Virus record (IMG/VR): IMGVR_UViG_3300036804_000195
Coordinates: 1-56,281 of that record
DNA length: 56,281 nucleotides
Strand: one strand, 5' to 3'
Source of the DNA: a virus
Taxonomy: Duplodnaviria > Caudoviricetes
Made by a program: the position numbers and the translations under genes. This document shows positions 1 through 56,281 of this stretch, in pieces. The number at the start of each line of letters is the position of its first letter. The stretch's first letter is position 1. The notes under the pieces are model-generated. The model had not been told where the DNA came from and did not search any database. It saw only the letters and a list, made by a program, of their open reading frames with translations.

Positions 1-243
1 GCCGACGCCAAGCCGGCCGCGCCGAGCGGCAGCGGATGCCCGCTGTGCAGCCGACAGCACGCCACGTGCCAGTTCGAGGCCGGCGCCACCGGCTGCGTCA
101 ACGCCGACTGCGCCAACCCCCACCACCACGCCGGCTTAGGAGCAGCGAGTGACCAGCAGCGGCGGCGGCATAACGATCCACCGCAGCCAGCACGCGCAGC
201 AGTACGTCGTGGTGCCCAACGGGATCGCCCGCAACACGCGGCT
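1..243. repeat. Terminal direct repeat, left copy (circular overlap)
   Basis: 1-243 matches 56039-56281 except at 4 positions (128, 130, 131, 144). Confidence 0.95.
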
Positions 244-2991: not shown

Positions 2992-3774
2992 ATGGGCAAG
3001 CACAACTCAGCAACCGGAATGTACGTCGACGCCGACCCGGAGTACGGACTGGCGCAGGCATACCGCGAGGATCGCCAGTACCCGGGCGTCGACGAAACGG
3101 TGAGCTTCTCGCAGATCGGCGCCGACGCCGGCGCGGCCGAGCTGACCTTCGACGGCGCGGCCGCCGAGTCCGGTTACTACATCGAGCCGCTGCACGGCCT
3201 GGCCGGCGACATCCACTACGCGCCGTTCCACCCGGAGGCCGCGGTGTGCGGAGCGAGCGGCCCGCGCGGGATCCTCGGGACCCCGTACCCGGACCTGGTC
3301 GACTGCCCGGAATGCTTCGGGCACCTGACCGTCGTCACGCACCACCAGGAGCGGCAGATCCGGATCGCGCTGGTGTACCTGACCGAACACGGGAGCCACC
3401 CGAGCGCGGTCGCCCGCGCCGCGGTGATCCTGCGCGCCGGCCCGGGCGCGCCGCGAGCCGAGATGGGCGCCGGGCTGAAGATGGCCACCGGCCTCGAAGG
3501 CCAGAAAGTCCGCTGCTCGGGCTGCGGCACCAAATACGAGTGCAGGCCGGAGGACCCGCACTTCACCGACCCCGCCGACGACAAGGCCGGGCTGTGCCTG
3601 GCGTGCGTGATGACCGAGACCAGGCCGCCGGGGATGACTGAGGCGATCACGCCGAGCGCGGTCCACCCGCCACAGCGGCGCAAGCGGCCCGTCAAGGCCG
3701 CGGCGATCGACCAGGACCCGGCGCCCGCGGCCGAGCCCGACAACCCGCCAGCGGCCGACGGGGAGCCGCAGTGA
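2992..3774 (+). CDS. Hypothetical protein with Zn-binding Cys motifs
   Basis: GGAGGA RBS; VDCPEC, CSGC, CLAC. Confidence 0.7.
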   Translation: MGKHNSATGMYVDADPEYGLAQAYREDRQYPGVDETVSFSQIGADAGAAELTFDGAAAESGYYIEPLHGLAGDIHYAPFHPEAAVCGASGPRGILGTPYPDLVDCPECFGHLTVVTHHQERQIRIALVYLTEHGSHPSAVARAAVILRAGPGAPRAEMGAGLKMATGLEGQKVRCSGCGTKYECRPEDPHFTDPADDKAGLCLACVMTETRPPGMTEAITPSAVHPPQRRKRPVKAAAIDQDPAPAAEPDNPPAADGEPQ

Positions 3775-4528: not shown

Positions 4529-4784
4529 CCACCGGCCGCCCGTCGGCGAGCCGGTACCGCGCCGCCAGCCGACGGCAGAGGACGCCGGGCTGCAGCCCGC
4601 ACAGCTCACCGACCTCGCGCACCGGGTCGCCGCAGCGGCCGTCACGGCGCGCGGGATGGCCGAGTCCGAGCCCGGCGACTCGCGGTGGGCGTACCCGCTG
4701 CACGGCATCGCCGACAGCCTCGACAGCCAGGCCGCGGCGCTGCGGCAGATCGCCCGCGCGATCGGCCGCAGGCACGCGCCCTAA
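4515..4784 (+). CDS. Hypothetical protein
   Basis: GGAGG upstream; 89-aa ORF ending just before a hairpin. Confidence 0.55.
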   Translation: MPRRNHRPPVGEPVPRRQPTAEDAGLQPAQLTDLAHRVAAAAVTARGMAESEPGDSRWAYPLHGIADSLDSQAAALRQIARAIGRRHAP

Positions 4785-4790
4785 AACGTG

Positions 4791-4818
4791 CGGGGCCGCG
4801 CAGACCCGCGCGGCCCCG
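4791..4818 (+). promoter_or_regulatory. Perfect 11-bp hairpin upstream of the RAMP-like gene
   Basis: CGGGGCCGCGC-AGACCC-GCGCGGCCCCG. No U-tract, so it may be a terminator, processing site or stabiliser. Confidence 0.55.
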
Positions 4819-4843
4819 GCCTAACAAGGAAAGGGAATCACCC

Positions 4844-5452
4844 ATGTATCAGATCATGCGGATCGGCATCGAGGGCGTCGGACACGGCCTCCTGATGAAC
4901 AACCCGGCAGGCATGGCCGCACACACCGACGAACTGGTGCGCGCCGGCAAGAAAATACCGGTGCCCTATGACGAGGCCGTCTCCAAGCTGTACATCGTCC
5001 CCGGCGGCAACCAGCTCTACGGTGCGTCCGACTGGTTCCGCGAGGCCGCACTCGTCGGGGCCAAGGCAGTGAGGGATACGAGCCGCAGCGGCCGCGCCAG
5101 CATGGTCCAGAGTTTCGGCGCCAATGTATTCCTGTCCGAGCCGTACTGCCCGCTCGTCCGCGCCAGCACCGGCAAGCCCATCACCAGCGCCGACGACGAG
5201 TGGGAGATATTCCTCAAGCGAGCCGTCGTCCAGGGCAACGGAATCATGCGCTCCCGGCCGCTCGTCCACGACTGGGCCTGCACCGTCGAATTCGAATACG
5301 ACGACGAGGGAATAGCGCCGGCGATGGTCGCGGCAATTCTCCACATCGCCGGCAAGTTCCCAGGAGTCGGCGACTACCGGCCCGGTAAGAAGGGACCGTT
5401 CGGAAGGTTCCGCGTGATGGAGCTGGACGGGGAAGGATGGCAGCCGTCATGA
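4844..5452 (+). CDS. Stand-alone RAMP/Cas7-like RNA-binding protein (Vipr-like)
   Basis: 202 aa with AAGGAAAGGGA RBS. N-terminal strand MRIGIEGVGHGLLMNNP, helix SDWFREAALVGAK, MRSRPLVHDWACTVEFEY, and C-terminal Gly-rich loop GVGDYRPGKKGPFGRFRV typical of RAMPs. Lies next to a GGY-NN array. Confidence 0.75.
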   Translation: MYQIMRIGIEGVGHGLLMNNPAGMAAHTDELVRAGKKIPVPYDEAVSKLYIVPGGNQLYGASDWFREAALVGAKAVRDTSRSGRASMVQSFGANVFLSEPYCPLVRASTGKPITSADDEWEIFLKRAVVQGNGIMRSRPLVHDWACTVEFEYDDEGIAPAMVAAILHIAGKFPGVGDYRPGKKGPFGRFRVMELDGEGWQPS

Positions 5453-6147
5453 GCGAGCTTGTGCCGGTCGCGGAGCTGAATCTGGACATGGGCCTCTATC
5501 CGCGGAACAGCGTCAGCGAGGCGCACGTGACCGAGCTGGCGCGGGTCATGGAAGGTGGCCACGAGCTGCCGGCCATCGTCGCCTGCCGCGCCACGAAGCG
5601 CATCGCCGACGGCGCACACCGCTGGACCGCTGCGGTGCGGCGCGGCAGCGAGACGATCGCAGTCGACTGGCGCGACTACGCCGACGACAAGGCGTTCTTC
5701 CGCGACGCCGTCCTGCTCAACTCCGGGCAGGGCCTGAACTTCACCTCCTACGACCGGCTGAAGGTCATCACGGTCGGCCGCGAGTTCGGGCTGAAGGAAA
5801 TCGACCTGGCCGGGCTGCTGCGCACGTCGCCCAGCTACATCAAGGCACTGATGCCGAGGTATGCCGTGATGACCGAGGACCAGAAACGCGGGAAGGCCGA
5901 GCGAACCAGCAGAGTGCCGCTGAAGGCCTCGACCCGGCACCTGTCCGGGCAGACCATCACGCCGAAGCAGGCCGACGCGATCAGGGGAAACGCTCCCGGC
6001 ACGTCGTACCTGCTGACGGTGCGCCAGCTCGCCAGCGCGCTCGAAAACGATCTGCTGCCGCCGCCGGGCCAGCACCCAGCGCTGTGGCAGGAACTGGAGC
6101 AGCTCGGCGAGATGATCGCAGCCGCCGCAGCGGCGACAGCAGCATAA
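5449..6147 (+). CDS. ParB/Sulfiredoxin-like N-terminal domain protein coupled to the RAMP gene
   Basis: ATGA overlap. VPVAELNLD...YPR...HVTELA...LPAIVA...IADGAHRWTAA (DGxHR motif), followed by a helical region EIDLAGLLRTSPSYI. Confidence 0.75.
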   Translation: MSELVPVAELNLDMGLYPRNSVSEAHVTELARVMEGGHELPAIVACRATKRIADGAHRWTAAVRRGSETIAVDWRDYADDKAFFRDAVLLNSGQGLNFTSYDRLKVITVGREFGLKEIDLAGLLRTSPSYIKALMPRYAVMTEDQKRGKAERTSRVPLKASTRHLSGQTITPKQADAIRGNAPGTSYLLTVRQLASALENDLLPPPGQHPALWQELEQLGEMIAAAAAATAA

Positions 6148-6153
6148 AAAAGT

Positions 6154-6542
6154 GAGGATGTGGCGTCGCGAGGCGAGCCGCGGCATGGCGGGGCAACGCG
6201 CGGCATGGCGGGGCGAGGCGTGGTGAGGATCCGGCGCGGTTTGGCTGGGCCCGGCTTGGCATGGCTAGGTCAGGCGCGGCGAGGTGAGGCGAGGACGCGG
6301 CGGGGTGCGGCGAGGCATGGCATGGCCCGGCATGGCGAGTTGCGGCAAGGCGTGGCGTGGCCAGGCATGGCGAGGATTTGGCGTGGTGAGGTCGCGCTAG
6401 GCGCGGCGAGGCCTGGCGGGGCCAGGCGTGGTGAGGCGTGGTGAGGACGCGGTCAGGTCAGGCGAGGCGTGGTCAGGCCTGGCTGGGCGAGGCCAGGTGA
6501 GGTGAGGCAAGGGCGCGGCCCTGAGAGCCAATCTAAGCGCCC
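6154..6542 (+). ncRNA. GGY-NN pentamer array: five putative guide RNA units plus a 3' hairpin
   Basis: 65 pentamers, 60 with GGC/GGT. GAGGA+3 nt separators at 6154, 6225, 6291, 6372, 6443 (spacings 71, 66, 81, 71, all 5n+1). Terminal stem GGGCGC 6511-6516 / GCGCCC 6537-6542. Confidence 0.8.
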
Positions 6543-6650
6543 GGGATCTGCCCGCGGCCGATAGCCCGGACCGGGCCGAGTTCGCCAGTGTGGCGCACAG
6601 CGACGGCCAGCGCAGGCCACCTGGGCCAAGTTGCCCAGCCAGACGGGCCA

Positions 6651-6666
6651 TGTTTCACGTGAATCC
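6651..6666. promoter_or_regulatory. parS-like site
   Basis: TGTTTCACGTGAATCC versus bacterial parS consensus TGTTTCACGTGAAACA (14/16); intergenic. Confidence 0.6.
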
Positions 6667-6718
6667 ACCGGGCATGACAAAACCGCCCCCGGCAGGCAGC
6701 ACCGGAGGCGGTATAAGC

Positions 6719-6757
6719 GGCAGGGGCCGGCACGAATGCCAGCCCCTGCCTTTCCTT
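6719..6757 (+). terminator. Intrinsic terminator at the convergence of early and late operons
   Basis: GGCAGGGGC-C-GGCA-CGAA-TGCC-A-GCCCCTGCC followed by TTTCCTT. Confidence 0.6.
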
Positions 6758-6810
6758 GGGGTGGAACCGTAGCGCGCGCAATATGCGCGCAATTGAAGTG
6801 CCAGGCCAGC

Positions 6811-8013
6811 CTAGCCGCCGGCCTTCCGCCAGGCGAGGTAGGCGCGTTTCATCTGCTCGTTGTCGCCGATGTGGCGGAGCGCGGCCCACGGGTCGCCGAC
6901 GGCGGCCAGCGCCGCGTCCCGGTCCGACACCGGGGTGGGCGTCGGGGTCGGAGTCGGCGTCGGGGTGGGAGCGGGCGGCGCGCCCTGGAGGACGGCGAGC
7001 AGCCGGGCGCCGTCGGGGACACCGAACCCGGTGGCCTCGTCGCGGCCCGGGCCGGCGCGGAACGCGCCGTTGCTGCCGGAGGTCACGTCGAAGCACACGG
7101 TGGCGTTCGCGGCGACCTCGGAGGTGAAGTCGAACGATGCGCCGGCCAGCTCGAGCAGCCGCAGGTACAGGCCGAGGTGCAGCGGCGCGACCGCGCTGGT
7201 GCCGCCGAACACCGCCTGCTCGCCGTCGACGATGACCTGGTAGCCGGTCTCCGGGTCGGCGTTGCCGGCGATGTCGGGGACATCGCGGCCGGGGAACAGC
7301 ACCGACACGCCGCCGCCGCCAGCCGACGATGACGAGTCGTCCCAGACGACCTCGGCCGACCGCGCGCCGGCGGAGGTGAGCGTGAGGCGGGTGCCGCCGC
7401 AGCCGGTGACGTTCGGCGAGCTGGCCGGGTAGTCGACGTGCTTGCCCGACTCGCCGTCCCCGGACCCGGAGTCGCCGGACGCGGCGAAGATCTGGATCCC
7501 GGCTTTCTTCGCGGCCGCGAACGCCGCCTCCATCTTCGTGATCGTCGACGCCGACCACTCGTTTTCCGGGCCGCCCCAGGAGATGGAGATCGCGTCGACC
7601 TTGTCCGCGGTGGCGGCCTCGATCGCGGCGATGAAACCGGCGTCGGTGTTCGGAGCGAAGTACACGTTCAGGGTGGCGTCCGGAGCGAGCGCGCCGGCGA
7701 CCTCGATGTCCAGGAGGACCTCGCCGTCGGCGCCGTCCGGGCCGTCGCTGGTGTTCGAGCCGCCGGCGACCGGCTTCGACACCACGTGCGGCACGGGCAG
7801 GCCGAGCCCGCCGAAGTAGGCGTCCAGGTCCTCGGCGCCGAAGCCGCCGCCCAGCTCGATGATCCCGCCGGTGCGGCCCTTGCCGGTCGCAGCCGGGTAG
7901 TTGTAGGCCCCGGCGACCTGCAGCGGCGTGTACCCGCCGGCGGCCGCGAGAGGCTTGCGGAGGTAGGTGCTGGCGGCGATGAGCGGCGCGCCGCTCATGG
8001 TCGGTTCACTCAT
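6811..8013 (-). CDS. S53 family (sedolisin/kumamolisin-like) serine peptidase without prodomain
   Basis: IIELGGG, EVLLDIE (Glu/Asp), SISWG, AASGDSGS, DYPASSP, VPDIAGNADP, GGTSAVAP (catalytic Ser); PT linker and short C-terminal tail. Confidence 0.9.
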   Translation of the reverse strand: MSEPTMSGAPLIAASTYLRKPLAAAGGYTPLQVAGAYNYPAATGKGRTGGIIELGGGFGAEDLDAYFGGLGLPVPHVVSKPVAGGSNTSDGPDGADGEVLLDIEVAGALAPDATLNVYFAPNTDAGFIAAIEAATADKVDAISISWGGPENEWSASTITKMEAAFAAAKKAGIQIFAASGDSGSGDGESGKHVDYPASSPNVTGCGGTRLTLTSAGARSAEVVWDDSSSSAGGGGVSVLFPGRDVPDIAGNADPETGYQVIVDGEQAVFGGTSAVAPLHLGLYLRLLELAGASFDFTSEVAANATVCFDVTSGSNGAFRAGPGRDEATGFGVPDGARLLAVLQGAPPAPTPTPTPTPTPTPVSDRDAALAAVGDPWAALRHIGDNEQMKRAYLAWRKAGG

Positions 8014-8263
8014 GGTCTGGCGTCCTTTCGCCCGGCGCGGCGGCCGGGACAGTCCGGTTCTGGTGGGGAGCGAGGTAGCCGGCGAGCAGCGCCAGGCCGC
8101 CGTCGGCGATGACATGCGCCAGGTAACCCGCGATCGCGGGAGGCGCGGAATGCCAGATCAGGTGCAGGCCGAGCTGCACGAGCGCCGCGGCGGCCGCGGC
8201 AGCGGCGCCGGAGGCTTTCACCTTGGGCGCGACCGGCCAGCGGCCGCTGCGGCGACGGCACAT
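8006..8263 (-). CDS. Holin (actinophage type)
   Basis: VAPKVKASGAAA...two hydrophobic segments...AGYLAPHQNR; located in the lysis cassette. Confidence 0.7.
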   Translation of the reverse strand: MCRRRSGRWPVAPKVKASGAAAAAAAALVQLGLHLIWHSAPPAIAGYLAHVIADGGLALLAGYLAPHQNRTVPAAAPGERTPDHE

Positions 8264-26386: not shown

Positions 26387-26701
26387 TCAGGTCTTGTCGC
26401 GCGGCGAGGACTGGCGGCCGGCCGGCGGGGTGCGGCGAGCCTTCTCCGCGGCGGCCTCGCGCTCGTCGGCGGCTTCCTTGTCGGCCTTGCGCGCCGCCGC
26501 GGCCTTCCGGTCGTCGGCCGCCTTGGCGCGGGAGGTGTAGCCGAACCCGGCCAGCGCCCGGTCGAAACCGGCCACGCGCTCTTCGGGCGCGCCCTCGTCG
26601 ACGGCGAGCTGCCGTTCGTTCAGCACCCGCTCGACGTGGTGGCCGACGCCCGGCCGGTCGGCGTAGGACTCGCGGATCTCGTCGCGTTCGCTTTTAGCCA
26701 T
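26387..26701 (-). CDS. Hypothetical protein following the capsid gene
   Basis: GGAGG RBS; MAKSERDEIRE...; charged tail ARRTPPAGRQSS. Confidence 0.65.
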   Translation of the reverse strand: MAKSERDEIRESYADRPGVGHHVERVLNERQLAVDEGAPEERVAGFDRALAGFGYTSRAKAADDRKAAAARKADKEAADEREAAAEKARRTPPAGRQSSPRDKT

Positions 26702-43322: not shown

Positions 43323-43549
43323 CGTGAGGTGTTCCTTTCGCGGACTACGCGCAGCGGGAGCAGCGCGAATTCTTGGGGGAAGTCGATGCCGGGGCAGGCG
43401 CCGTGGGAGCCGTGCGAGCCGGTGCGCCGGCAGACCGGGGCGGGCCGGCTGCCGACGTGGATCGGGTGGGTGCGCGGCTGGTAGCAGTCGGCGCACCGGT
43501 CGCGGCGGGTGCTGGGGACGTAGCCGTGGCGGCCAATGTCAGCGCTCAT
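43319..43549 (-). CDS. Small Cys/His-rich protein
   Basis: H...CADC...HPIH...C...H..H..C. Confidence 0.5.
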   Translation of the reverse strand: MSADIGRHGYVPSTRRDRCADCYQPRTHPIHVGSRPAPVCRRTGSHGSHGACPGIDFPQEFALLPLRVVRERNTSR

Positions 43550-43797
43550 CGGGAACTGAACCTCCGGATCCCGTAGCTGCCGCCGTCGTGGCGGGCGCCG
43601 ATCTGGTGGGCGCACATCCAGTCGAGGACCGGGCGGACGCGCCAGAGCGGCTGGCGCGCGAGGCGAGCGATCCGGCTGGGAACCAGCCACTGGCCCGGAC
43701 GCGCCTCGAGGACGGCCTCGACCTTGTCGGCGAGGTCGAACTCGGCGTCGGTGAGCAGCGCCGCGTGCGGGCTGCTGCAGGACCAGGTGCTCTCCAT
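43546..43797 (-). CDS. Small winged-helix-like protein, probably leaderless
   Basis: The ATG follows the TACGCT -10 element of motif copy B after a 7-nt gap; VPSRIARLARQPLWRVRPVLDWM. Confidence 0.55.
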   Translation of the reverse strand: MESTWSCSSPHAALLTDAEFDLADKVEAVLEARPGQWLVPSRIARLARQPLWRVRPVLDWMCAHQIGARHDGGSYGIRRFSSR

Positions 43798-49028: not shown

Positions 49029-50498
49029 TTATTTCCGGCGCCAGGTGATGGCGACGCGGCCGAGGTCGACGGACGGCGACCGGCCGCCGACCTGGGTCGC
49101 CCGGGACACGGTCACCGCGGCGATGAACATGCGCAGGAACTCGCGCTGCTCCCCGAGCGTCATCTTCGGCCACGCGGCCCGGGCGGCGGCGATGCCGTCG
49201 CGGGCAGGCGGCGGCCGCTTGTCGGCCAGCTCGGCGCGGAGCGCGGCTTCCCGGTCGGCGAGAGCACCGCGGGCAGCCTGCCATTCAGCCGAGGACAGGC
49301 CGCCTTCGCCCCACGCGGCGGCGAGGCTGGCGCGGCGGCCGTCGACGGCGGACAGCGCCGTGGTGATCTCGTCGCGGCGGGCCGCGTGCGCGTCCTCGGC
49401 GATCGCGTCGAGGAACTCCGGCTTGTCCAGGCGGGCGAACAGCTCGCCGGTCACGTGCGCCTCCACCGGCTCGAGCGACACGCCGGTGCAGGAGCGGCCG
49501 CCCTGCGCGGGGTGGCACACGTAGTACGGGACGTCGCGGCCGCCGCGGCGGGCGCCGCCCTTGAGCTGCTTGATCGACCCGGCCATCGGCGCGTCGCAGA
49601 CACCGCAGCGGATGAGGCCGCCCGACAGGAGGTAGCGGCGGCCAGGCGACCCGGTGTGCTCGGCGCCGACGGGGTAGGCGCCGCCGCCGGAGCGGGTGAC
49701 GGTGCGGGGCCCGGACAGGCGGGCGCGGCAGGCCTGCCAGGTGTCCTCGTCGAGGATCGGCTCCCACGCGCCGCGGCCGGTGATGACGCCGCGGTGCACG
49801 CGCCACCCGGCGACGGTCGGCCGGGTCAGCCAGTTACGCACCGACCTCGGCTGCAGCGCAGCGCCGCGGACGCCGGCCAGGCCGCGGGCGCGCATCGCCG
49901 CGGCGACCGAGGTCAGCGACCAGCCGGCCAGGACCAGCACGGCGGCCTCGCGGATCGCGTCGGCCTCGGCGGGCACGACGGCGTAGGTGCTGCCGCCGCC
50001 CTCGGCCGGCACGTGCCGGTAGCCGAACAGCACCGAGCCCGGCGCCAGGCCGCGGGCGGCGTTGTCGTCCAGGCGGTCGTGCACGCGTTTCTTCATCCGG
50101 CGGACCTCGGCGGCGGCGAGAACGGCCTTGATGCCGGCGATCTCATCGCCGACCCGGACGATGCCGTCGCGGCGCGTGTGGACCTCGTCGATGCCGGCGG
50201 CGACCAGCTCGGCGGCCAGCTCGAACCAGCCGATCTCGCGGCGCTGCAGCCGGTACTGCTCGATGGCCCAGACCTGGCTGACGGCGCCGGCGGCCAGGTC
50301 CTCGCGGAGCTTCTCGTAGCCGGGGCGCCAGACGTCGTCCTCGGCGGCCGACAGATCGTTGTCGGAGTAGACCACGACGGGCAGGCCCGGCCACACCACG
50401 GCGGCGTAGGCGCGGCCGTACCGCTCCTGCACGGCGACGCCCTCGGCGCGGCCGCTGCGGTCCTTGCTGATCCGGACATACAGCGCGACATTGCTCAC
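49029..50498 (-). CDS. int: Large serine integrase
   Basis: VALYVRIS (catalytic Ser), YSDNDLSA, RPGYEKL, recombinase domain FGY...WEPILD, Zn ribbon CGVC...YYVC...C, coiled coil. Confidence 0.93.
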   Translation of the reverse strand: MSNVALYVRISKDRSGRAEGVAVQERYGRAYAAVVWPGLPVVVYSDNDLSAAEDDVWRPGYEKLREDLAAGAVSQVWAIEQYRLQRREIGWFELAAELVAAGIDEVHTRRDGIVRVGDEIAGIKAVLAAAEVRRMKKRVHDRLDDNAARGLAPGSVLFGYRHVPAEGGGSTYAVVPAEADAIREAAVLVLAGWSLTSVAAAMRARGLAGVRGAALQPRSVRNWLTRPTVAGWRVHRGVITGRGAWEPILDEDTWQACRARLSGPRTVTRSGGGAYPVGAEHTGSPGRRYLLSGGLIRCGVCDAPMAGSIKQLKGGARRGGRDVPYYVCHPAQGGRSCTGVSLEPVEAHVTGELFARLDKPEFLDAIAEDAHAARRDEITTALSAVDGRRASLAAAWGEGGLSSAEWQAARGALADREAALRAELADKRPPPARDGIAAARAAWPKMTLGEQREFLRMFIAAVTVSRATQVGGRSPSVDLGRVAITWRRK

Positions 50499-53444: not shown

Positions 53445-54394
53445 AGCTGCTACTGGACGCCGGCCAGGTCGAGGCCGACCGCAGCCGCTGGCTCGAGGTC
53501 CGCCGCCGCGGCGTGACCGCCTCGGAGATCGCCGCGATCATGGGCGTCCCCGGCGCCTACGGCACCGCCTCGTCGGTCTACTACGAAAAGACCGCCGGGT
53601 ATGAGCAGGACGACAGCCTGTCGATGCGGATCGGCCGCCACTTCGAAGGCCTCGTCGGCGAGATCTTCGCCGAGCAGCACCGCGAACTCGCCGTCGCCGA
53701 CGGCGGCCTGTACGCCGCCGACGGGCAACCGTGGGCAATGGCGACCTTCGACCGGCTCGCCCGCCACCTCTGGCGGCCGCCGGTGCCGGTGCAGATCAAG
53801 ACCTCGGCGACCTACGACGGGTACGGGCCCGACGGCAGCGATGAGGTGCCGCCCCACTACCTCGCGCAGGACCTGTGGGAGATGCACGTCTCCGGCGCGG
53901 CCGAGGTCTGGATGCCGGTGCTGTTCACGAACGGCCGGTCGATCCGCACCTACCGGATCGCGCGCGACGCCGACGCCGACGCCGACATTGCCGTGATGCT
54001 CGCCGAGGCCGAAGCCTTCCTCGAGCGGGTCGCCCGCGCCGAGCCGCCGCCGGTCGACTGGCGGCCGCAGACCACCCGCGCGCTGAAACGCGTGTACGCC
54101 GACGCCGAGGACCGCGACACCGAGATCCCGGACGCGCTGCGCGATGAGCTGCGCGCAGCCAAGGCCGCGCAGAAAGCCGGCGACAAGCGGTGGGGCCAGG
54201 CGGAGAACGAGCTGCGCGCCGCGATGGGCAAAGCGCTGCGCGCCGTCGACAGCCACGGCGACCGGGTCGCCTTCCGGTCCCTTTTCAGCCAGCAGCGCAT
54301 CGACGTCAAGCGGCTGCGCGCCGACTGGCCGGCCGCCGCGGCCGCGTGCGCCAAGTCCAGCCCCGTCGACCGGATCAACCTCACCAGGGAGTGA
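53441..54394 (+). CDS. YqaJ-like viral recombinase exonuclease
   Basis: WLEVRRRGVTASEIAAIMG...GRHFE...ATFDR...QIKT...VPPHYLAQ. Confidence 0.9.
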   Translation: MKLLLDAGQVEADRSRWLEVRRRGVTASEIAAIMGVPGAYGTASSVYYEKTAGYEQDDSLSMRIGRHFEGLVGEIFAEQHRELAVADGGLYAADGQPWAMATFDRLARHLWRPPVPVQIKTSATYDGYGPDGSDEVPPHYLAQDLWEMHVSGAAEVWMPVLFTNGRSIRTYRIARDADADADIAVMLAEAEAFLERVARAEPPPVDWRPQTTRALKRVYADAEDRDTEIPDALRDELRAAKAAQKAGDKRWGQAENELRAAMGKALRAVDSHGDRVAFRSLFSQQRIDVKRLRADWPAAAAACAKSSPVDRINLTRE

Positions 54395-54398
54395 CGCC

Positions 54399-55787
54399 AT
54401 GCCACGACAGAACGTCCGCGACGCCGCCGCACAGCCTGACAAGCAGCCCGGTGCCGTTACCGGCAAGGAGGTCGAGCGCCGGGAACTGCGGGCAATGCTC
54501 CATGATATGCGGCCGGAGTTCGAGAAGCAGCTCCCCCGGCACATCCCCCCCGACTACTTCATGCGGGTCGTGCTGTCCGGGCTGCAGAACAGCGACCAGG
54601 CCGCCGCGCTCGCCAAATGCAACCGGGCGTCGCTGCTGGCTGCGCTGCTCGAGGCGGCCCGGTACGGGCTGATGCCCTTCACCGACGAGGCCACGATCGT
54701 CCCGTTCGGCGACACGGCGACGTTCATCGCCCAGTACCAGGGCCTGGTCCAGATGTTCTACCGGACCGGCCAGGTCGCCAAGGTGACCGCCAAGCTGATC
54801 CACCGCAACGACGAATGGGCCGAGGGATACGGCGACGGCCAGGGTTTCTACCACAAGCCTCGCCGCTTCGACGCGAACGGCGAGGCCGTCGACCGGGGCC
54901 CGGTCATCCTCGCCTACTGCTACGTGACGCTGAAAGACGGGTCGCGGACCGAGGTCGAGATCGTCACCCGCCAGGAAGCCATCGACGTCCGCGACAACCG
55001 GTCCAAGTCCTGGCAGCGGGCCGAGTCGAACGGGAAGCGCAACTCGGCGTGGCACACCGACTTCGACGCGATGTGGCTCAAGACCGCGGTGCGCCGCGAG
55101 GCCAAATGGGCGCCGAAGTCGCCGGAGCTGGTCGAGCTGCTCATGGCCGACGCCAAGGCCGACAGCGCCGACACCCCGAGCCGTGCCGGGGCGCCAGCGG
55201 CCGCGTGGGAAGCCGACATCAACTACGGCACCGTGGTCCAGGGCGAGGTCGTGCACGACGAACCTGAGACTTCCGCTGCACCGGGGATGGCCTCGCAGCG
55301 GACAGAAGCGGCGGCGGGGACGGAGGCCGGACCGGAACCCCCCGCCGCCGCGACCCAAGAGCCCGGAGCGGATGGCCGCGCAAGCGACACTGGGGTCCGC
55401 GCCGGGACGGGAGGTGCAGCCGCAGCAGCAGACCCCGAGGCGGCCGGCCTCGAGGCGGAGCGCGCGGCTGCACCTCCCGACCAGGCCACCGACATCCGCA
55501 ACCGCGACCGGATCGCCGCGGCGCTGACCCGCCGCCTCGAGCGGGCCGGCATGGCAGGCAAAGCAGGCGCGGAGAACAGGCTGCTCGCCCTCGGCGCCCT
55601 CGCCGCCGGCGACGCCGCGCCGCTGCGGCTGGCCGCAGCCGAGGACCTGACACTCAAGCAGGCCCGCGAGGCCACCGACGTGCTCGACCGCATCCAGGCG
55701 ATCGCCGGGCAGGACGGCAGCGACCTCGGCGCCATCCTGGCCGGCATCGCCGACGGCACCGCCCGCCAGCTCAAGGACACCGACTGA
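54399..55787 (+). CDS. recT: RecT-family single-strand annealing protein with long C-terminal extension
   Basis: QLPRHI...LAKCNRASLLAALLEAARYGL...IVPF...YQGLV...SAWHTDFDAMWLKTAVRREAKWAPKS. Confidence 0.9.
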   Translation: MPRQNVRDAAAQPDKQPGAVTGKEVERRELRAMLHDMRPEFEKQLPRHIPPDYFMRVVLSGLQNSDQAAALAKCNRASLLAALLEAARYGLMPFTDEATIVPFGDTATFIAQYQGLVQMFYRTGQVAKVTAKLIHRNDEWAEGYGDGQGFYHKPRRFDANGEAVDRGPVILAYCYVTLKDGSRTEVEIVTRQEAIDVRDNRSKSWQRAESNGKRNSAWHTDFDAMWLKTAVRREAKWAPKSPELVELLMADAKADSADTPSRAGAPAAAWEADINYGTVVQGEVVHDEPETSAAPGMASQRTEAAAGTEAGPEPPAAATQEPGADGRASDTGVRAGTGGAAAAADPEAAGLEAERAAAPPDQATDIRNRDRIAAALTRRLERAGMAGKAGAENRLLALGALAAGDAAPLRLAAAEDLTLKQAREATDVLDRIQAIAGQDGSDLGAILAGIADGTARQLKDTD

Positions 55788-56281
55788 TGCCCCCGGCCCA
55801 GCGGCCCGGCCGGGAGCAGCCCAAACTGTGCGCCTGCGGCGAGACCTTCGTGTTCGGCCGCACCGCCGCCGGAAAGGCCATGCCGCTCAACCCGCTGCCC
55901 GACCCGGCAGGCAACGTCGCCGTCTACCGGGACGCCCACGGCGTCCTGCGCGCCCGCGTCCTGGCGCAGGACGAGCAGCCGCGGCCGCACGAGAAACGCG
56001 CCATGCCGCATTTTGCGACGTGCACCGAGCGGAAGAAAGCCGACGCCAAGCCGGCCGCGCCGAGCGGCAGCGGATGCCCGCTGTGCAGCCGACAGCACGC
56101 CACGTGCCAGTTCGAGGCCGGCGCCACCGGCTGCGTCAACGCCGACTGCGCCAACCCCCACCACCGCAGCGGCTTAGGAGCGGCGAGTGACCAGCAGCGG
56201 CGGCGGCATAACGATCCACCGCAGCCAGCACGCGCAGCAGTACGTCGTGGTGCCCAACGGGATCGCCCGCAACACGCGGCT
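55787..56281 (+). CDS. Zn-binding hypothetical protein (continues through the circular junction; stop at 310-312)
   Basis: TGATG coupling; CACG...GKAMPLNP.PDPAGNV...PHFATC; CPLC...C...C. Confidence 0.7.
   Translation, partial: MPPAQRPGREQPKLCACGETFVFGRTAAGKAMPLNPLPDPAGNVAVYRDAHGVLRARVLAQDEQPRPHEKRAMPHFATCTERKKADAKPAAPSGSGCPLCSRQHATCQFEAGATGCVNADCANPHHRSGLGAASDQQRRRHNDPPQPARAAVRRGAQRDRPQHAA
56039..56281. repeat. Terminal direct repeat, right copy
   Basis: Matches 1-243 with 4 mismatches. Confidence 0.95.

What the first reader, a model, noticed from the sequence alone, without database searches (positions are those of the whole stretch)
6154..6542. Array grammar: five guide-sized units separated by GAGGA+3 nt phase shifts and closed by a hairpin
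GAGGA occurs at 6154, 6225, 6291, 6372 and 6443. Each is followed by 3 nt (TGT, TCC, CGC, TTT, CGC), which shifts the 5-nt register by exactly one base. Units hold 13, 12, 15, 13 and 12 pentamers. Only 5 of 65 triplets deviate from GGY (CGC three times, GCC, GTT), and three of these are in the first unit. The array starts 7 nt after the ParB-like stop codon and ends in a GGGCGC/GCGCCC stem. A slippage microsatellite would homogenise the NN positions and would not carry regular delimiters. Inference: a multi-guide precursor in which GAGGA marks processing or filament boundaries.
Basis: partly seen in the sequence, partly recalled or inferred. Interest (0 to 1): 0.85.

Follow-up and report, generated by a model that had tools for sequence, protein, structure and literature searches.

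The report
Phage VIPR guide-RNA array, five guides
This stretch is the guide-RNA array of a phage VIPR system, a CRISPR-related RNA-guided DNA silencer first described in 2026, and its GAGGA marks do split it into five guides, two of which spell a rival phage's capsid gene.

Summary
In window 6162-6511, GGY recurs every 5 nt. There are five rows of 13, 12, 15, 13 and 12 pentamers, and 60 of 65 in-phase triplets are GGY. Each row is set off by GAGGA plus 3 nt, which moves the register by +1.

It is not a new kind. The gene two places upstream (4844-5452) is a Vipr protein. Its family profile matches PDB 36pp, "SUSP1 Vipr protein", at E 5.9e-18, and the GGY-binding residues R138, D177, Y178 and R179 are kept. 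The "ParB-like" gene (5437-6147) is the accessory gene.

So the array is a VIPR vrRNA array (bioRxiv 10.64898/2026.04.26.720920), close to that paper's "staggered" arrays. This scan had already met such arrays on other DNA.

Three things are new here:
- The delimiter is best read as a hexamer, GGA-Y-NN. It is conserved in the four closest related arrays.
- Under the published 1-nt-skip code, guides 3 and 4 both match one HK97-type capsid gene family of actinomycete (pro)phages, in frame.
- The guide 3 match stops at both delimiters.

RNA processing at GAGGA is inferred, not shown. The closing hairpin folds no better than shuffled sequence.

The parts
4844..5452 (+). vipr gene (202 aa, RAMP/Cas7-like Vipr protein). 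The likely start is the ATG at 4844, inside the longer ORF 4685-5452.
   Evidence: The family profile A1 matches PDB 36pp_D 'SUSP1 Vipr protein' at E 5.9e-18 over residues 1-191. The single sequence matches at E 4.5e-6, with R138 and the G-loop GVGDYRP aligned to GVGDWRP. The AF2 model has pLDDT 92.2. Top Foldseek matches are Csm3/Cas7 chains of type III and VII CRISPR complexes, prob 1.00. tblastn hits phage phiSUSP1 at E 5e-5. It falls in phrog_4652, the same family as Saal gp51.
5437..6147 (+). Candidate vipr-accessory gene (vap), ParB N-terminal-domain-like, 236 aa. It overlaps the end of vipr.
   Evidence: It matches phrog_1033 'ParB-like partition protein' at E 1.3e-10. It is 43% identical (E 3e-67) to the gene in the same position in L126. 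The L126 and L127 orthologues pass Pfam's ParB_N threshold (26.9 and 32.5 bits against 26.3). The window's own copy scores only 12.8 bits.
6154..6161 (+). Delimiter 1: GA + hexamer GGATGT. It opens guide 1.
6162..6226 (+). Guide unit 1: 13 pentamers, 3 of them degenerate (CGC, GCC, CGC).
   Evidence: No target was found.
6227..6292 (+). Guide unit 2: hexamer GGATCC + 12 pentamers.
   Evidence: No target was found.
6293..6373 (+). Guide unit 3: hexamer GGACGC + 15 pentamers. It decodes to A-G-A-E/D-I/M-I/M-P-I/M-E/D-A-K/N-V-V-H/Q-I/M.
   Evidence: It matches the HK97-type capsid gene site AGAE[IM]VPM[DE]AK[TQI]VQI at 13 of 15 dinucleotides, hexamer NN included. The match stops at both delimiters.
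6374..6444 (+). Guide unit 4: hexamer GGATTT + 13 pentamers.
   Evidence: Nine consecutive dinucleotides match ERYAELGQV in the same capsid gene on L223, about 730 nt downstream of the guide 3 site and in the same frame.
6445..6510 (+). Guide unit 5: hexamer GGACGC + 12 pentamers. No GAGGA follows it.
   Evidence: No target was found.
6512..6543 (+). GGGCGC...GCGCCC stem after one more +1 shift. It is a weak feature and probably not functional.
   Evidence: z = +0.35; 116 of 200 shuffles fold at least as well.
6719..6757 (+). Strong hairpin followed by UUUCCUU. It is the likely intrinsic terminator of the vipr-vap-array transcript.
   Evidence: -31.3 kcal/mol, z = -3.11; 1 of 200 shuffles folds as well. 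No sigma-70-like promoter was found between 4300 and 7000.

Best explanation
The stretch is the vrRNA (guide RNA) array of a phage-borne VIPR system. The locus runs vipr (4844-5452), a ParB-like accessory gene (5437-6147), the array (6154-6521), and a terminator-like hairpin (6719-6757).

Shown by published work on SUSP1 and P. fulva VIPR:
- One Vipr protomer binds each pentamer. It holds GGY and presents the two variable bases.
- The NN dinucleotides pair with DNA that has one skipped base between pairs.
- The bound complex represses transcription.

Shown here:
- The Vipr homology and the pentamer grammar.
- Conservation of the delimiter in the clade.
- In-frame matches of guides 3 and 4 to one capsid gene family of rival actinomycete (pro)phages.

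Inferred:
- The array is co-transcribed with vipr and vap and is parsed into five guides.
- Each guide consists of a 5' hexamer GGA-Y-NN, then 8-16 variable pentamers, then a purine-rich 3' end (...GGYGA).
- The boundary works because the adenine sits where Vipr's narrow pocket admits only a pyrimidine. Together with the extra base, this breaks filament register.
- Whether the RNA is also cut there, and by what, is not known.
For: Vipr identity:
- PDB 36pp SUSP1 Vipr; R138, D177, Y178, R179 kept; Cas7/Csm3 fold; direct tblastn hit to phiSUSP1.

Array grammar:
-.
- 65 NN of 13 kinds, entropy 3.24 bits, against near-invariant GGY.

Not coding:
- No ORF spans the array.
- Reading, TGA/TAG occur in all three plus frames.
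- BobaPhett differs from Saal by a 5-nt insertion.

Same architecture and delimiter in relatives:
- L126, L127, L132 and L136 were found through the protein, not the repeat.
- 37 parsed units hold 8-16 pentamers (one has 20).
- The last NN is GA in 21 of 37, with entropy 2.1 bits against 3.8 for inner NN.

Targets:
- Guide 3 had one hit in 401 Actinomycetes-class genomes at up to 3 mismatches of 28. The reversed control had none.
- That hit lies in a PF05065 capsid gene.
- A pattern relaxed at two dinucleotides gave 1 IMG/VR and 4 metagenome contigs. All are at the same capsid site, in frame, with every skipped base at the wobble position.
- None of 100 shuffled guides reached the score.
- Guide 4 scored 19 of 20 in its best 10-dinucleotide window on the same capsid gene. 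The maximum over 34 shuffled units was 17.

Boundary:
- The guide 3 match runs from the hexamer's NN to the pentamer before the final GA. It fails on both sides.

Mechanism from papers:
- Results sections read, and passages. These include the purine-excluding Y3 pocket.
Against: - No RNA evidence: the one listed sequencing run is DNA.
- No exact target exists for any of the 5 guides in IMG/VR.
- Guides 1, 2 and 5 have no target above shuffled controls.
- The guide 3 targets all carry the same 2 mismatched dinucleotides. The extra hits came from a pattern relaxed after the first hit was seen, so they are homologues of one site, not independent hits.
- Guide 4 matches only 9 of 14 dinucleotides exactly (21 of 28 bases).
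- The histidine that reads G1 in SUSP1 (H17) aligns with N19 in this protein, although most relatives have H.
- The published staggered arrays are described as overlapping by 1 nt. Here a base is added, not shared.
- The boundary evidence rests on one guide. The hexamer-NN match alone has roughly a 1 in 8 to 1 in 16 chance.
- The unit parser required Y at hexamer position 4, so the Y count is circular.
Confidence: 0.85

Rival explanations
1. It is a VIPR array, but it acts as one long RNA. The GGA-Y hexamers only interrupt the protein filament or set its register, and no cleavage into five separate guides occurs.
For: No ribozyme, tail or processing enzyme is visible between units. The paper did not confirm processing of staggered arrays by small-RNA sequencing. 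The purine-excluding pocket explains a filament break without any cut.
Against: The SUSP1 vrRNAs characterised so far are discrete transcripts of about 100 nt. The legend of fig. S18 speaks of 'individual processed vrRNAs'.
Confidence: 0.25
2. It is a DNA-level element: a centromere-like or iteron-like repeat bound by the adjacent ParB-like protein.
For: A ParB N-domain-like gene ends 6 nt before the array. Partition sites are often repeat arrays next to parB (recalled, not from a call).
Against: The same grammar occurs in Cluster F mycobacteriophages next to a Vipr homologue and without a ParB-like neighbour. The repeat is exactly the GGY/NN unit that Vipr binds as RNA. The variable bases spell a foreign capsid gene in frame, which a protein-binding DNA repeat would not do.
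Confidence: 0.03
3. It is a slippage-generated microsatellite, or a remnant without function.
For: TRF reports period-5 arrays with low match percentages (61-62%) and larger internal duplications of 35 and 66 nt.
Against: The NN positions are highly diverse while GGY is fixed. The delimiters are regular and conserved across relatives whose Vipr is only 30-53% identical. It is linked to vipr in relatives found through the protein alone.
Confidence: 0.02
4. It is a protein-coding region (ORF 6160-6444, 94 aa, or the small ORFs annotated over the array in BobaPhett and ByChance).
For: An open frame of 94 aa exists. GenBank records annotate hypothetical proteins over the homologous arrays.
Against: No ORF spans the array. 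Reading, stops occur in all three plus frames. There is a 5-nt length difference between Saal and BobaPhett. The periodicity is 5, not 3.
Confidence: 0.01

Closest known systems
VIPR systems (Vipr + vap + vrRNA); reference system Escherichia phage SUSP1, type II (bioRxiv 10.64898/2026.04.26.720920 and 10.64898/2026.04.26.720927)
   Same: A 202-aa Vipr homologue with the GGY-binding residues. An accessory gene next to it. Guides of 9-16 GGY/NN pentamers. Phage-borne. Decoded guides match a competing phage's gene, with the skipped base at the wobble position.
   Different: There is no conserved ~40-nt 3' tail or pseudoknot after each guide. The guides abut directly and are separated only by GA-GGA-Y. 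The accessory gene is ParB_N-like, and 'ParB' does not occur in the main text of any of the three VIPR papers (the structure paper was not searched for that word). The host is an actinomycete rather than an enterobacterium or Pseudomonas. H17 is replaced by N.
'Staggered vrRNA arrays' of the same paper (fig. S18; legend only seen)
   Same: Tail-less, head-to-tail guides in which a one-base register change marks the end of one guide and the start of the next.
   Different: The legend describes 1-nt overlapping positions. That is the GGCA|GGY junction (-1) seen here in Saal, L042, L060 and L103. In this window and its clade the junction adds a base instead (GGA-Y-NN hexamer, +1). The figure and the supplementary tables could not be seen, so the +1 form may already be shown there.
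Class 1 CRISPR crRNA bound by a Cas7/Csm3 backbone
   Same: The protein fold is shared: Foldseek top matches are Csm3 chains, prob 1.00. One protomer binds per fixed RNA step, with flipped bases.
   Different: There are no repeat-spacer units, no cas genes and no adaptation module. The step is 5 nt, with 3 bases held and 2 read. The target is read 2 of every 3 bases.

Membership tests
VIPR system | A Vipr protein (minimal RAMP: RRM core, G-loop, thumb) encoded at the locus | tested here: met
   The profile matches PDB 36pp_D SUSP1 Vipr at E 5.9e-18. The single sequence matches at E 4.5e-6. AF2 pLDDT is 92.2. The fold matches Csm3/Cas7. tblastn hits phiSUSP1.
VIPR system | Residues that hold GGY: thumb R138, G-loop D177, an aromatic at 178, R179 | tested here: met
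   The alignment to SUSP1 shows R138 and GVGDYRP against GVGDWRP. R138, D177, G170 and G174 are invariant in 43 relatives. P. fulva Vipr also has Y at the stacking position.
VIPR system | Histidine of the RRM sheet that reads G1 (H17 in SUSP1) | tested here: inconclusive
   The profile alignment puts SUSP1 H17 on the family's consensus H (LLMHNP). The window has N there (LLMNNP).
VIPR system | vrRNAs of 9-16 YNNGG repeats with conserved GGY and hypervariable NN | tested here: met
   There are five units of 12-15 pentamers, and 60 of 65 triplets are GGY. The NN entropy is 3.24 bits over 13 kinds.
VIPR system | A vipr-accessory (vap) gene with a predicted DNA-related function | tested here: met
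   The ParB-like gene is conserved in the same position in L126 and L127. Which of vap1-6 it is could not be told, because the supplements are closed.
VIPR system | Guides decode by the 1-nt-skip rule to genes of competing mobile elements, with the skipped base at the wobble position | tested here: met
   This holds for 2 of 5 guides (3 and 4). Both match one HK97-type capsid gene family, in frame. It does not hold for 3 of 5: no target was found.
VIPR system | No self-targeting by its own guides | tested here: met
   The best matches in the window are within the range of shuffled guides.
VIPR system | The RNA is expressed and co-purifies with Vipr; the complex binds DNA and represses | not testable with these tools
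   No RNA run holds the sequence.
VIPR type II array architecture | Each vrRNA ends in a conserved structured 3' tail (pseudoknot) | tested here: not met
   The units abut directly. The only conserved elements are the purine-rich last NN and GGA-Y. The terminal stem is no better than shuffles.
Staggered vrRNA arrays (fig. S18) | Adjacent vrRNAs derive from positions that overlap by 1 nt | tested here: not met
   The junction here adds one base (spacing 11 = 5 + 6) instead of sharing one (spacing 4). The general principle, a one-base register change as boundary, is met. The figure itself was not seen.
CRISPR array | Identical direct repeats of 25-40 nt alternating with unique spacers | tested here: not met
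   The only repeats are period-5 units and partial duplications of 35 and 66 nt.
Rfam RNA families | A match at the gathering score | tested here: not met
   The best hit in 5800-7000 scores 21.8 bits against a threshold of 59.5.

The most novel reading that the evidence does not exclude
The GGA-Y-NN hexamer is a self-contained punctuation mark of a tail-less VIPR array class. The adenine cannot enter Vipr's pyrimidine-only pocket, so it ends one filament. The same hexamer's last two bases are already read as the first code positions of the next guide. On this reading a one-base insertion, with no ribozyme, handle or dedicated nuclease, parses a polycistronic guide RNA. That would explain how the experimentally unconfirmed 'staggered' arrays are read. 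It would also give the minimal rule for packing many programmable guides in a row.
Probability: 0.35. Interest if true: 0.55.

Novelty: new member of a known kind. Interest (0 to 1): 0.4.

Why it matters
VIPR is months old in the literature and has been characterised only in enterobacterial and Pseudomonas phages. This locus extends it to a temperate phage of filamentous actinomycetes.

The locus has a compact, tail-less array. Its punctuation (GGA-Y-NN, +1) is conserved in a clade and can be read directly from sequence.

Two neighbouring guides converge on the major capsid gene of a different prophage family. This fits the proposed role in phage-against-phage competition, and it gives concrete target sites for a reporter assay.

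The guide 3 footprint ends at both delimiters. This is sequence-level evidence on where such guides begin and end, which the published work left untested for staggered arrays.

The same system sits in the early operon of well-studied Cluster F mycobacteriophages. There it is annotated as hypothetical proteins and could be tested easily.

Tried and rejected
Readings considered before the VIPR lead:
- A TRAP-like ring protein reading triplets.
- An R-loop origin.
- Two-quartet G-quadruplexes.
- A CsrA-type sponge.
- A Chi-like array.
All were dropped once the Vipr homology was shown.

Searches that gave nothing useful:
- Rfam: nothing near threshold.
- Pfam on the two upstream proteins at E 0.01: no hit.
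- Exact 1-nt-skip patterns of all five guides in IMG/VR: 0 hits each.
- Self-targets and targets in 1.14 Mb of fetched loci: none above shuffled guides.
- Guides 1, 2, 4 and 5 against 80 kb around the G207 capsid gene and against L215: none above shuffles.
- Guide 3 in five genomes that carry prophages with a capsid like the window's: 0 of 5.
- Vipr relatives in one genome per species (GTDB): 27 pattern matches, none confirmed.
- Units of related arrays against all local DNA: only the window's guides 3 and 4 exceeded shuffles. One L136 unit at 18/20 was not followed up.
- RNA evidence: no RNA holder was listed. The only run is DNA and may be the source sample.
- The 85% match at 26399-26437 is ordinary G+C-rich sequence, not an array.
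- The chain at 43455-43659 on the minus strand has 9/6/15 spacing, not period 5.

Literature:
- 'mycobacteriophage' + 'pentanucleotide' gave only microsatellite surveys (listing seen).
- 'Vipr' + 'mycobacteriophage' gave 21 papers, of which 10 were listed. All 10 were unrelated uses of the word.
- 'Mycobacter' is absent from the main text of all three VIPR papers.
- The supplements are closed. Their tables of loci, vap classes and the images of figs S17-S18 may already cover this clade, the ParB-like vap and the +1 junction.

Full report
**What is there**

The window is an IMG/VR virus record of 56,281 nt with 72% G+C. From 6162 to 6511 on the plus strand, GGY recurs every five bases. The positions fall into five rows whose residues mod 5 are 2, 3, 4, 0 and 1. 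The rows hold 13, 12, 15, 13 and 12 pentamers.

Five of the 65 in-phase triplets are not GGY: CGC three times, GCC once and GTT once. Three of these are in the first row. Each row is preceded by GAGGA and three further bases. The motif GAGGAYNNGGY occurs 13 times in the window against 3.4 expected, and none of 100 shuffles reached 13. Five of the 13 lie in this stretch.

The stretch is not coding. No ORF spans it. Reading the sequence, TGA and TAG occur in all three plus-strand frames.

**How the identity was found**

A blastn search of the phage collection matched the array, at about 70% identity, to Cheoctovirus (Cluster F) mycobacteriophages such as Saal, BobaPhett and ByChance. In those phages a similar array lies between gp50 and gp51 of the early rightward operon.

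Many of them show the same two-level grammar.

A look-up in this scan's earlier notes pointed to VIPR systems, described in 2026 preprints. I read the results of bioRxiv 10.64898/2026.04.26.720920, its methods sections 20 and 26 and some figure legends. I also read part 1 of the results of the structure paper 10.64898/2026.04.26.720927 and passages from it. For the October paper I read only the outline, and a term search found none of my six terms. The supplements are closed and the figures are not held.

**Membership test**

The ORF two places upstream, read from the ATG at 4844 (202 aa), has 107 relatives in the large protein collection. None has a Pfam domain or a functional name. A profile of 43 of them matches PDB 36pp chain D, "SUSP1 Vipr protein", at E 5.9e-18 over nearly its whole length. 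The single sequence matches at E 4.5e-6.

In that alignment R138 and the G-loop GVGDYRP stand opposite SUSP1's R138 and GVGDWRP. These are the residues that the structure paper shows holding G1, G2 and Y3. The stacking residue is Y, as in the P. fulva protein. The histidine that reads G1 (H17) corresponds to the family consensus H but is N in this protein.

The AlphaFold model is confident, with pLDDT 92.2. Its best PDB matches are Csm3/Cas7 chains of type III and VII CRISPR complexes. tblastn finds phiSUSP1 itself at E 5e-5.

The next gene (5437-6147) is ParB-like. It matches phrog_1033 at E 1.3e-10. It is 43% identical to the gene in the same place in L126, and the L126 and L127 orthologues pass Pfam's ParB_N threshold. 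The locus is thus vipr, then vap, then the array. A strong hairpin with a U-rich tract at 6719-6757 follows (z = -3.1). No sigma-70-like promoter was found between 4300 and 7000.

**The delimiter**

Relatives were fetched through the Vipr protein alone. The closest ones (L126, L127, L132, L136) all carry arrays on the vipr strand. In these arrays, rows of 8-16 pentamers are closed by an in-phase GGA followed by three bases. Of the 36 spacing-11 junctions printed there, which include the window's own four, 34 are GGA followed by a pyrimidine. The exceptions are GAACAC and GGGGGC.

The delimiter is therefore best described as a hexamer GGA-Y-NN, that is, a pentamer with an adenine inserted before the pyrimidine. 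The pentamers before it are purine-rich. Across 37 parsed units the last NN is GA in 21, and its entropy is 2.1 bits against 3.8 bits for inner positions. The parser for that count required a pyrimidine at hexamer position 4, so only one search is unbiased on that point.

Other clades use a four-base junction GGCA (-1), which fits the paper's "1 nt overlapping" staggered arrays, or a GGCTACCTCAG junction. The paper says staggered arrays were not among the architectures confirmed by small-RNA sequencing.

**Targets**

I replaced each GGY by one free base, following the published 1-nt-skip rule.
- No self-target and no local target exceeded shuffled guides.
- None of the five patterns had an exact match in IMG/VR.

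The window's capsid has relatives of 48-59% identity in prophages of Streptomyces, Amycolatopsis, Streptosporangium and Lentzea, and in one Actinomycetota MAG. I therefore searched 401 genomes of that class with guide 3, allowing up to 3 mismatches.
- One genome matched. The reversed control gave none.
- The site lies in a PF05065 (HK97-type) capsid gene. That gene is unrelated to the window's own capsid.

I then opened the two mismatched dinucleotides to N.
- This gave one IMG/VR contig and four metagenome contigs, one of which is the same contig as the IMG/VR hit.
- All are at the same site, AGAE[IM]VPM[DE]AK[TQI]VQIG, in frame, with every skipped base in the wobble position.
- These are homologues of one site, found with a pattern chosen after the fact, so they count as one target family.
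- None of 100 shuffled guides reached the score on the 80-kb prophage region or on L215.

Independently, a scan of 34 units (10 or more dinucleotides each) from this clade against all local DNA gave two scores above every shuffle (19 of 20 against at most 17).
- One was guide 3 on this capsid.
- The other was guide 4 on the same capsid gene in L223. There, nine consecutive dinucleotides spell ERYAELGQV, about 730 nt downstream and in the same frame.
- Guides 1, 2 and 5 remain without a target.

**Boundaries**

I laid the extended array, including neighbouring units, on the five capsid sequences.
- The guide 3 match starts at the last two bases of its hexamer (GC, opposite an Ala codon).
- It runs through 14 pentamers with two mismatched dinucleotides.
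- It fails at the final GA pentamer, at the next hexamer, and at the three pentamers upstream.

This is what one expects if the hexamers are guide boundaries, the hexamer's NN is read, and the terminal GA is handle rather than code. It rests on one guide, so I hold it as a lead.

The mechanistic inference is that an adenine cannot enter the pyrimidine-only pocket and so breaks the filament. This follows from the structure paper and is not tested here.

**Weak points**
- There are no RNA data.
- The terminal GGGCGC/GCGCCC stem is no better than shuffled sequence.

**Verdict**

It is a new member of a kind published in 2026, and this scan had already noted the kind on other DNA. The modest additions are the +1 hexamer punctuation of this clade, the ParB-like accessory gene, an actinomycete host range, and two guides aimed at a rival capsid gene.

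Noticed in passing
L001 2997-3245 (Mycobacterium phage Saal); L002 and L003 likewise: Cluster F (Cheoctovirus) mycobacteriophages carry a VIPR-like locus in their early rightward operon. A GGC-NN array with GGCA (-1) junctions lies directly upstream of gp51. gp51 falls in the same PHROG (4652, E 3.8e-58) as the window's Vipr. GenBank annotates small hypothetical ORFs over the array in BobaPhett and ByChance. The word 'Mycobacter' does not occur in the main text of the three VIPR papers.
   Followed up: partly
L002 about 3196-3210 against L001: BobaPhett has one extra pentamer (GGCCC) relative to Saal in an otherwise near-identical array. This shows single-pentamer gain or loss between close relatives.
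   Followed up: no
L132 3789-3910: The last two units of this related array are near-identical copies that differ in a few NN. This suggests arrays grow by whole-unit duplication followed by divergence. In the window, TRF also sees a 66-nt period across units 4 and 5 (75% matches).
   Followed up: no
window 89-117 and 56127-56155: The same 15-nt tandem repeat stretch appears near both ends of the record, 56,038 nt apart. This suggests a terminal overlap of about 240 nt, that is, a circularly closed or terminally redundant genome, although the record is classed as linear and 71% complete.
   Followed up: no
window 6811-8115 (-) and 49029-50498 (-), 54144-55787 (+): A subtilase-family (Peptidase_S8) gene converges on the VIPR locus. 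The phage also encodes an integrase (phrog_95) and a RecT-like annealing protein, so it is probably temperate.
   Followed up: no
L086 468-955: Another array class uses an 11-nt junction GGCTA-CCTCA-G (+1), with rows of 13-22 pentamers. The CCTC core is complementary to the GAGG of this window's delimiter.
   Followed up: no
L136 2462 unit against L077 about 712 (-): A guide of a related array scores 18 of 20 on another VIPR-array-bearing viral contig, just above the shuffled maximum of 17. It could be a guide aimed at a rival element.
   Followed up: no
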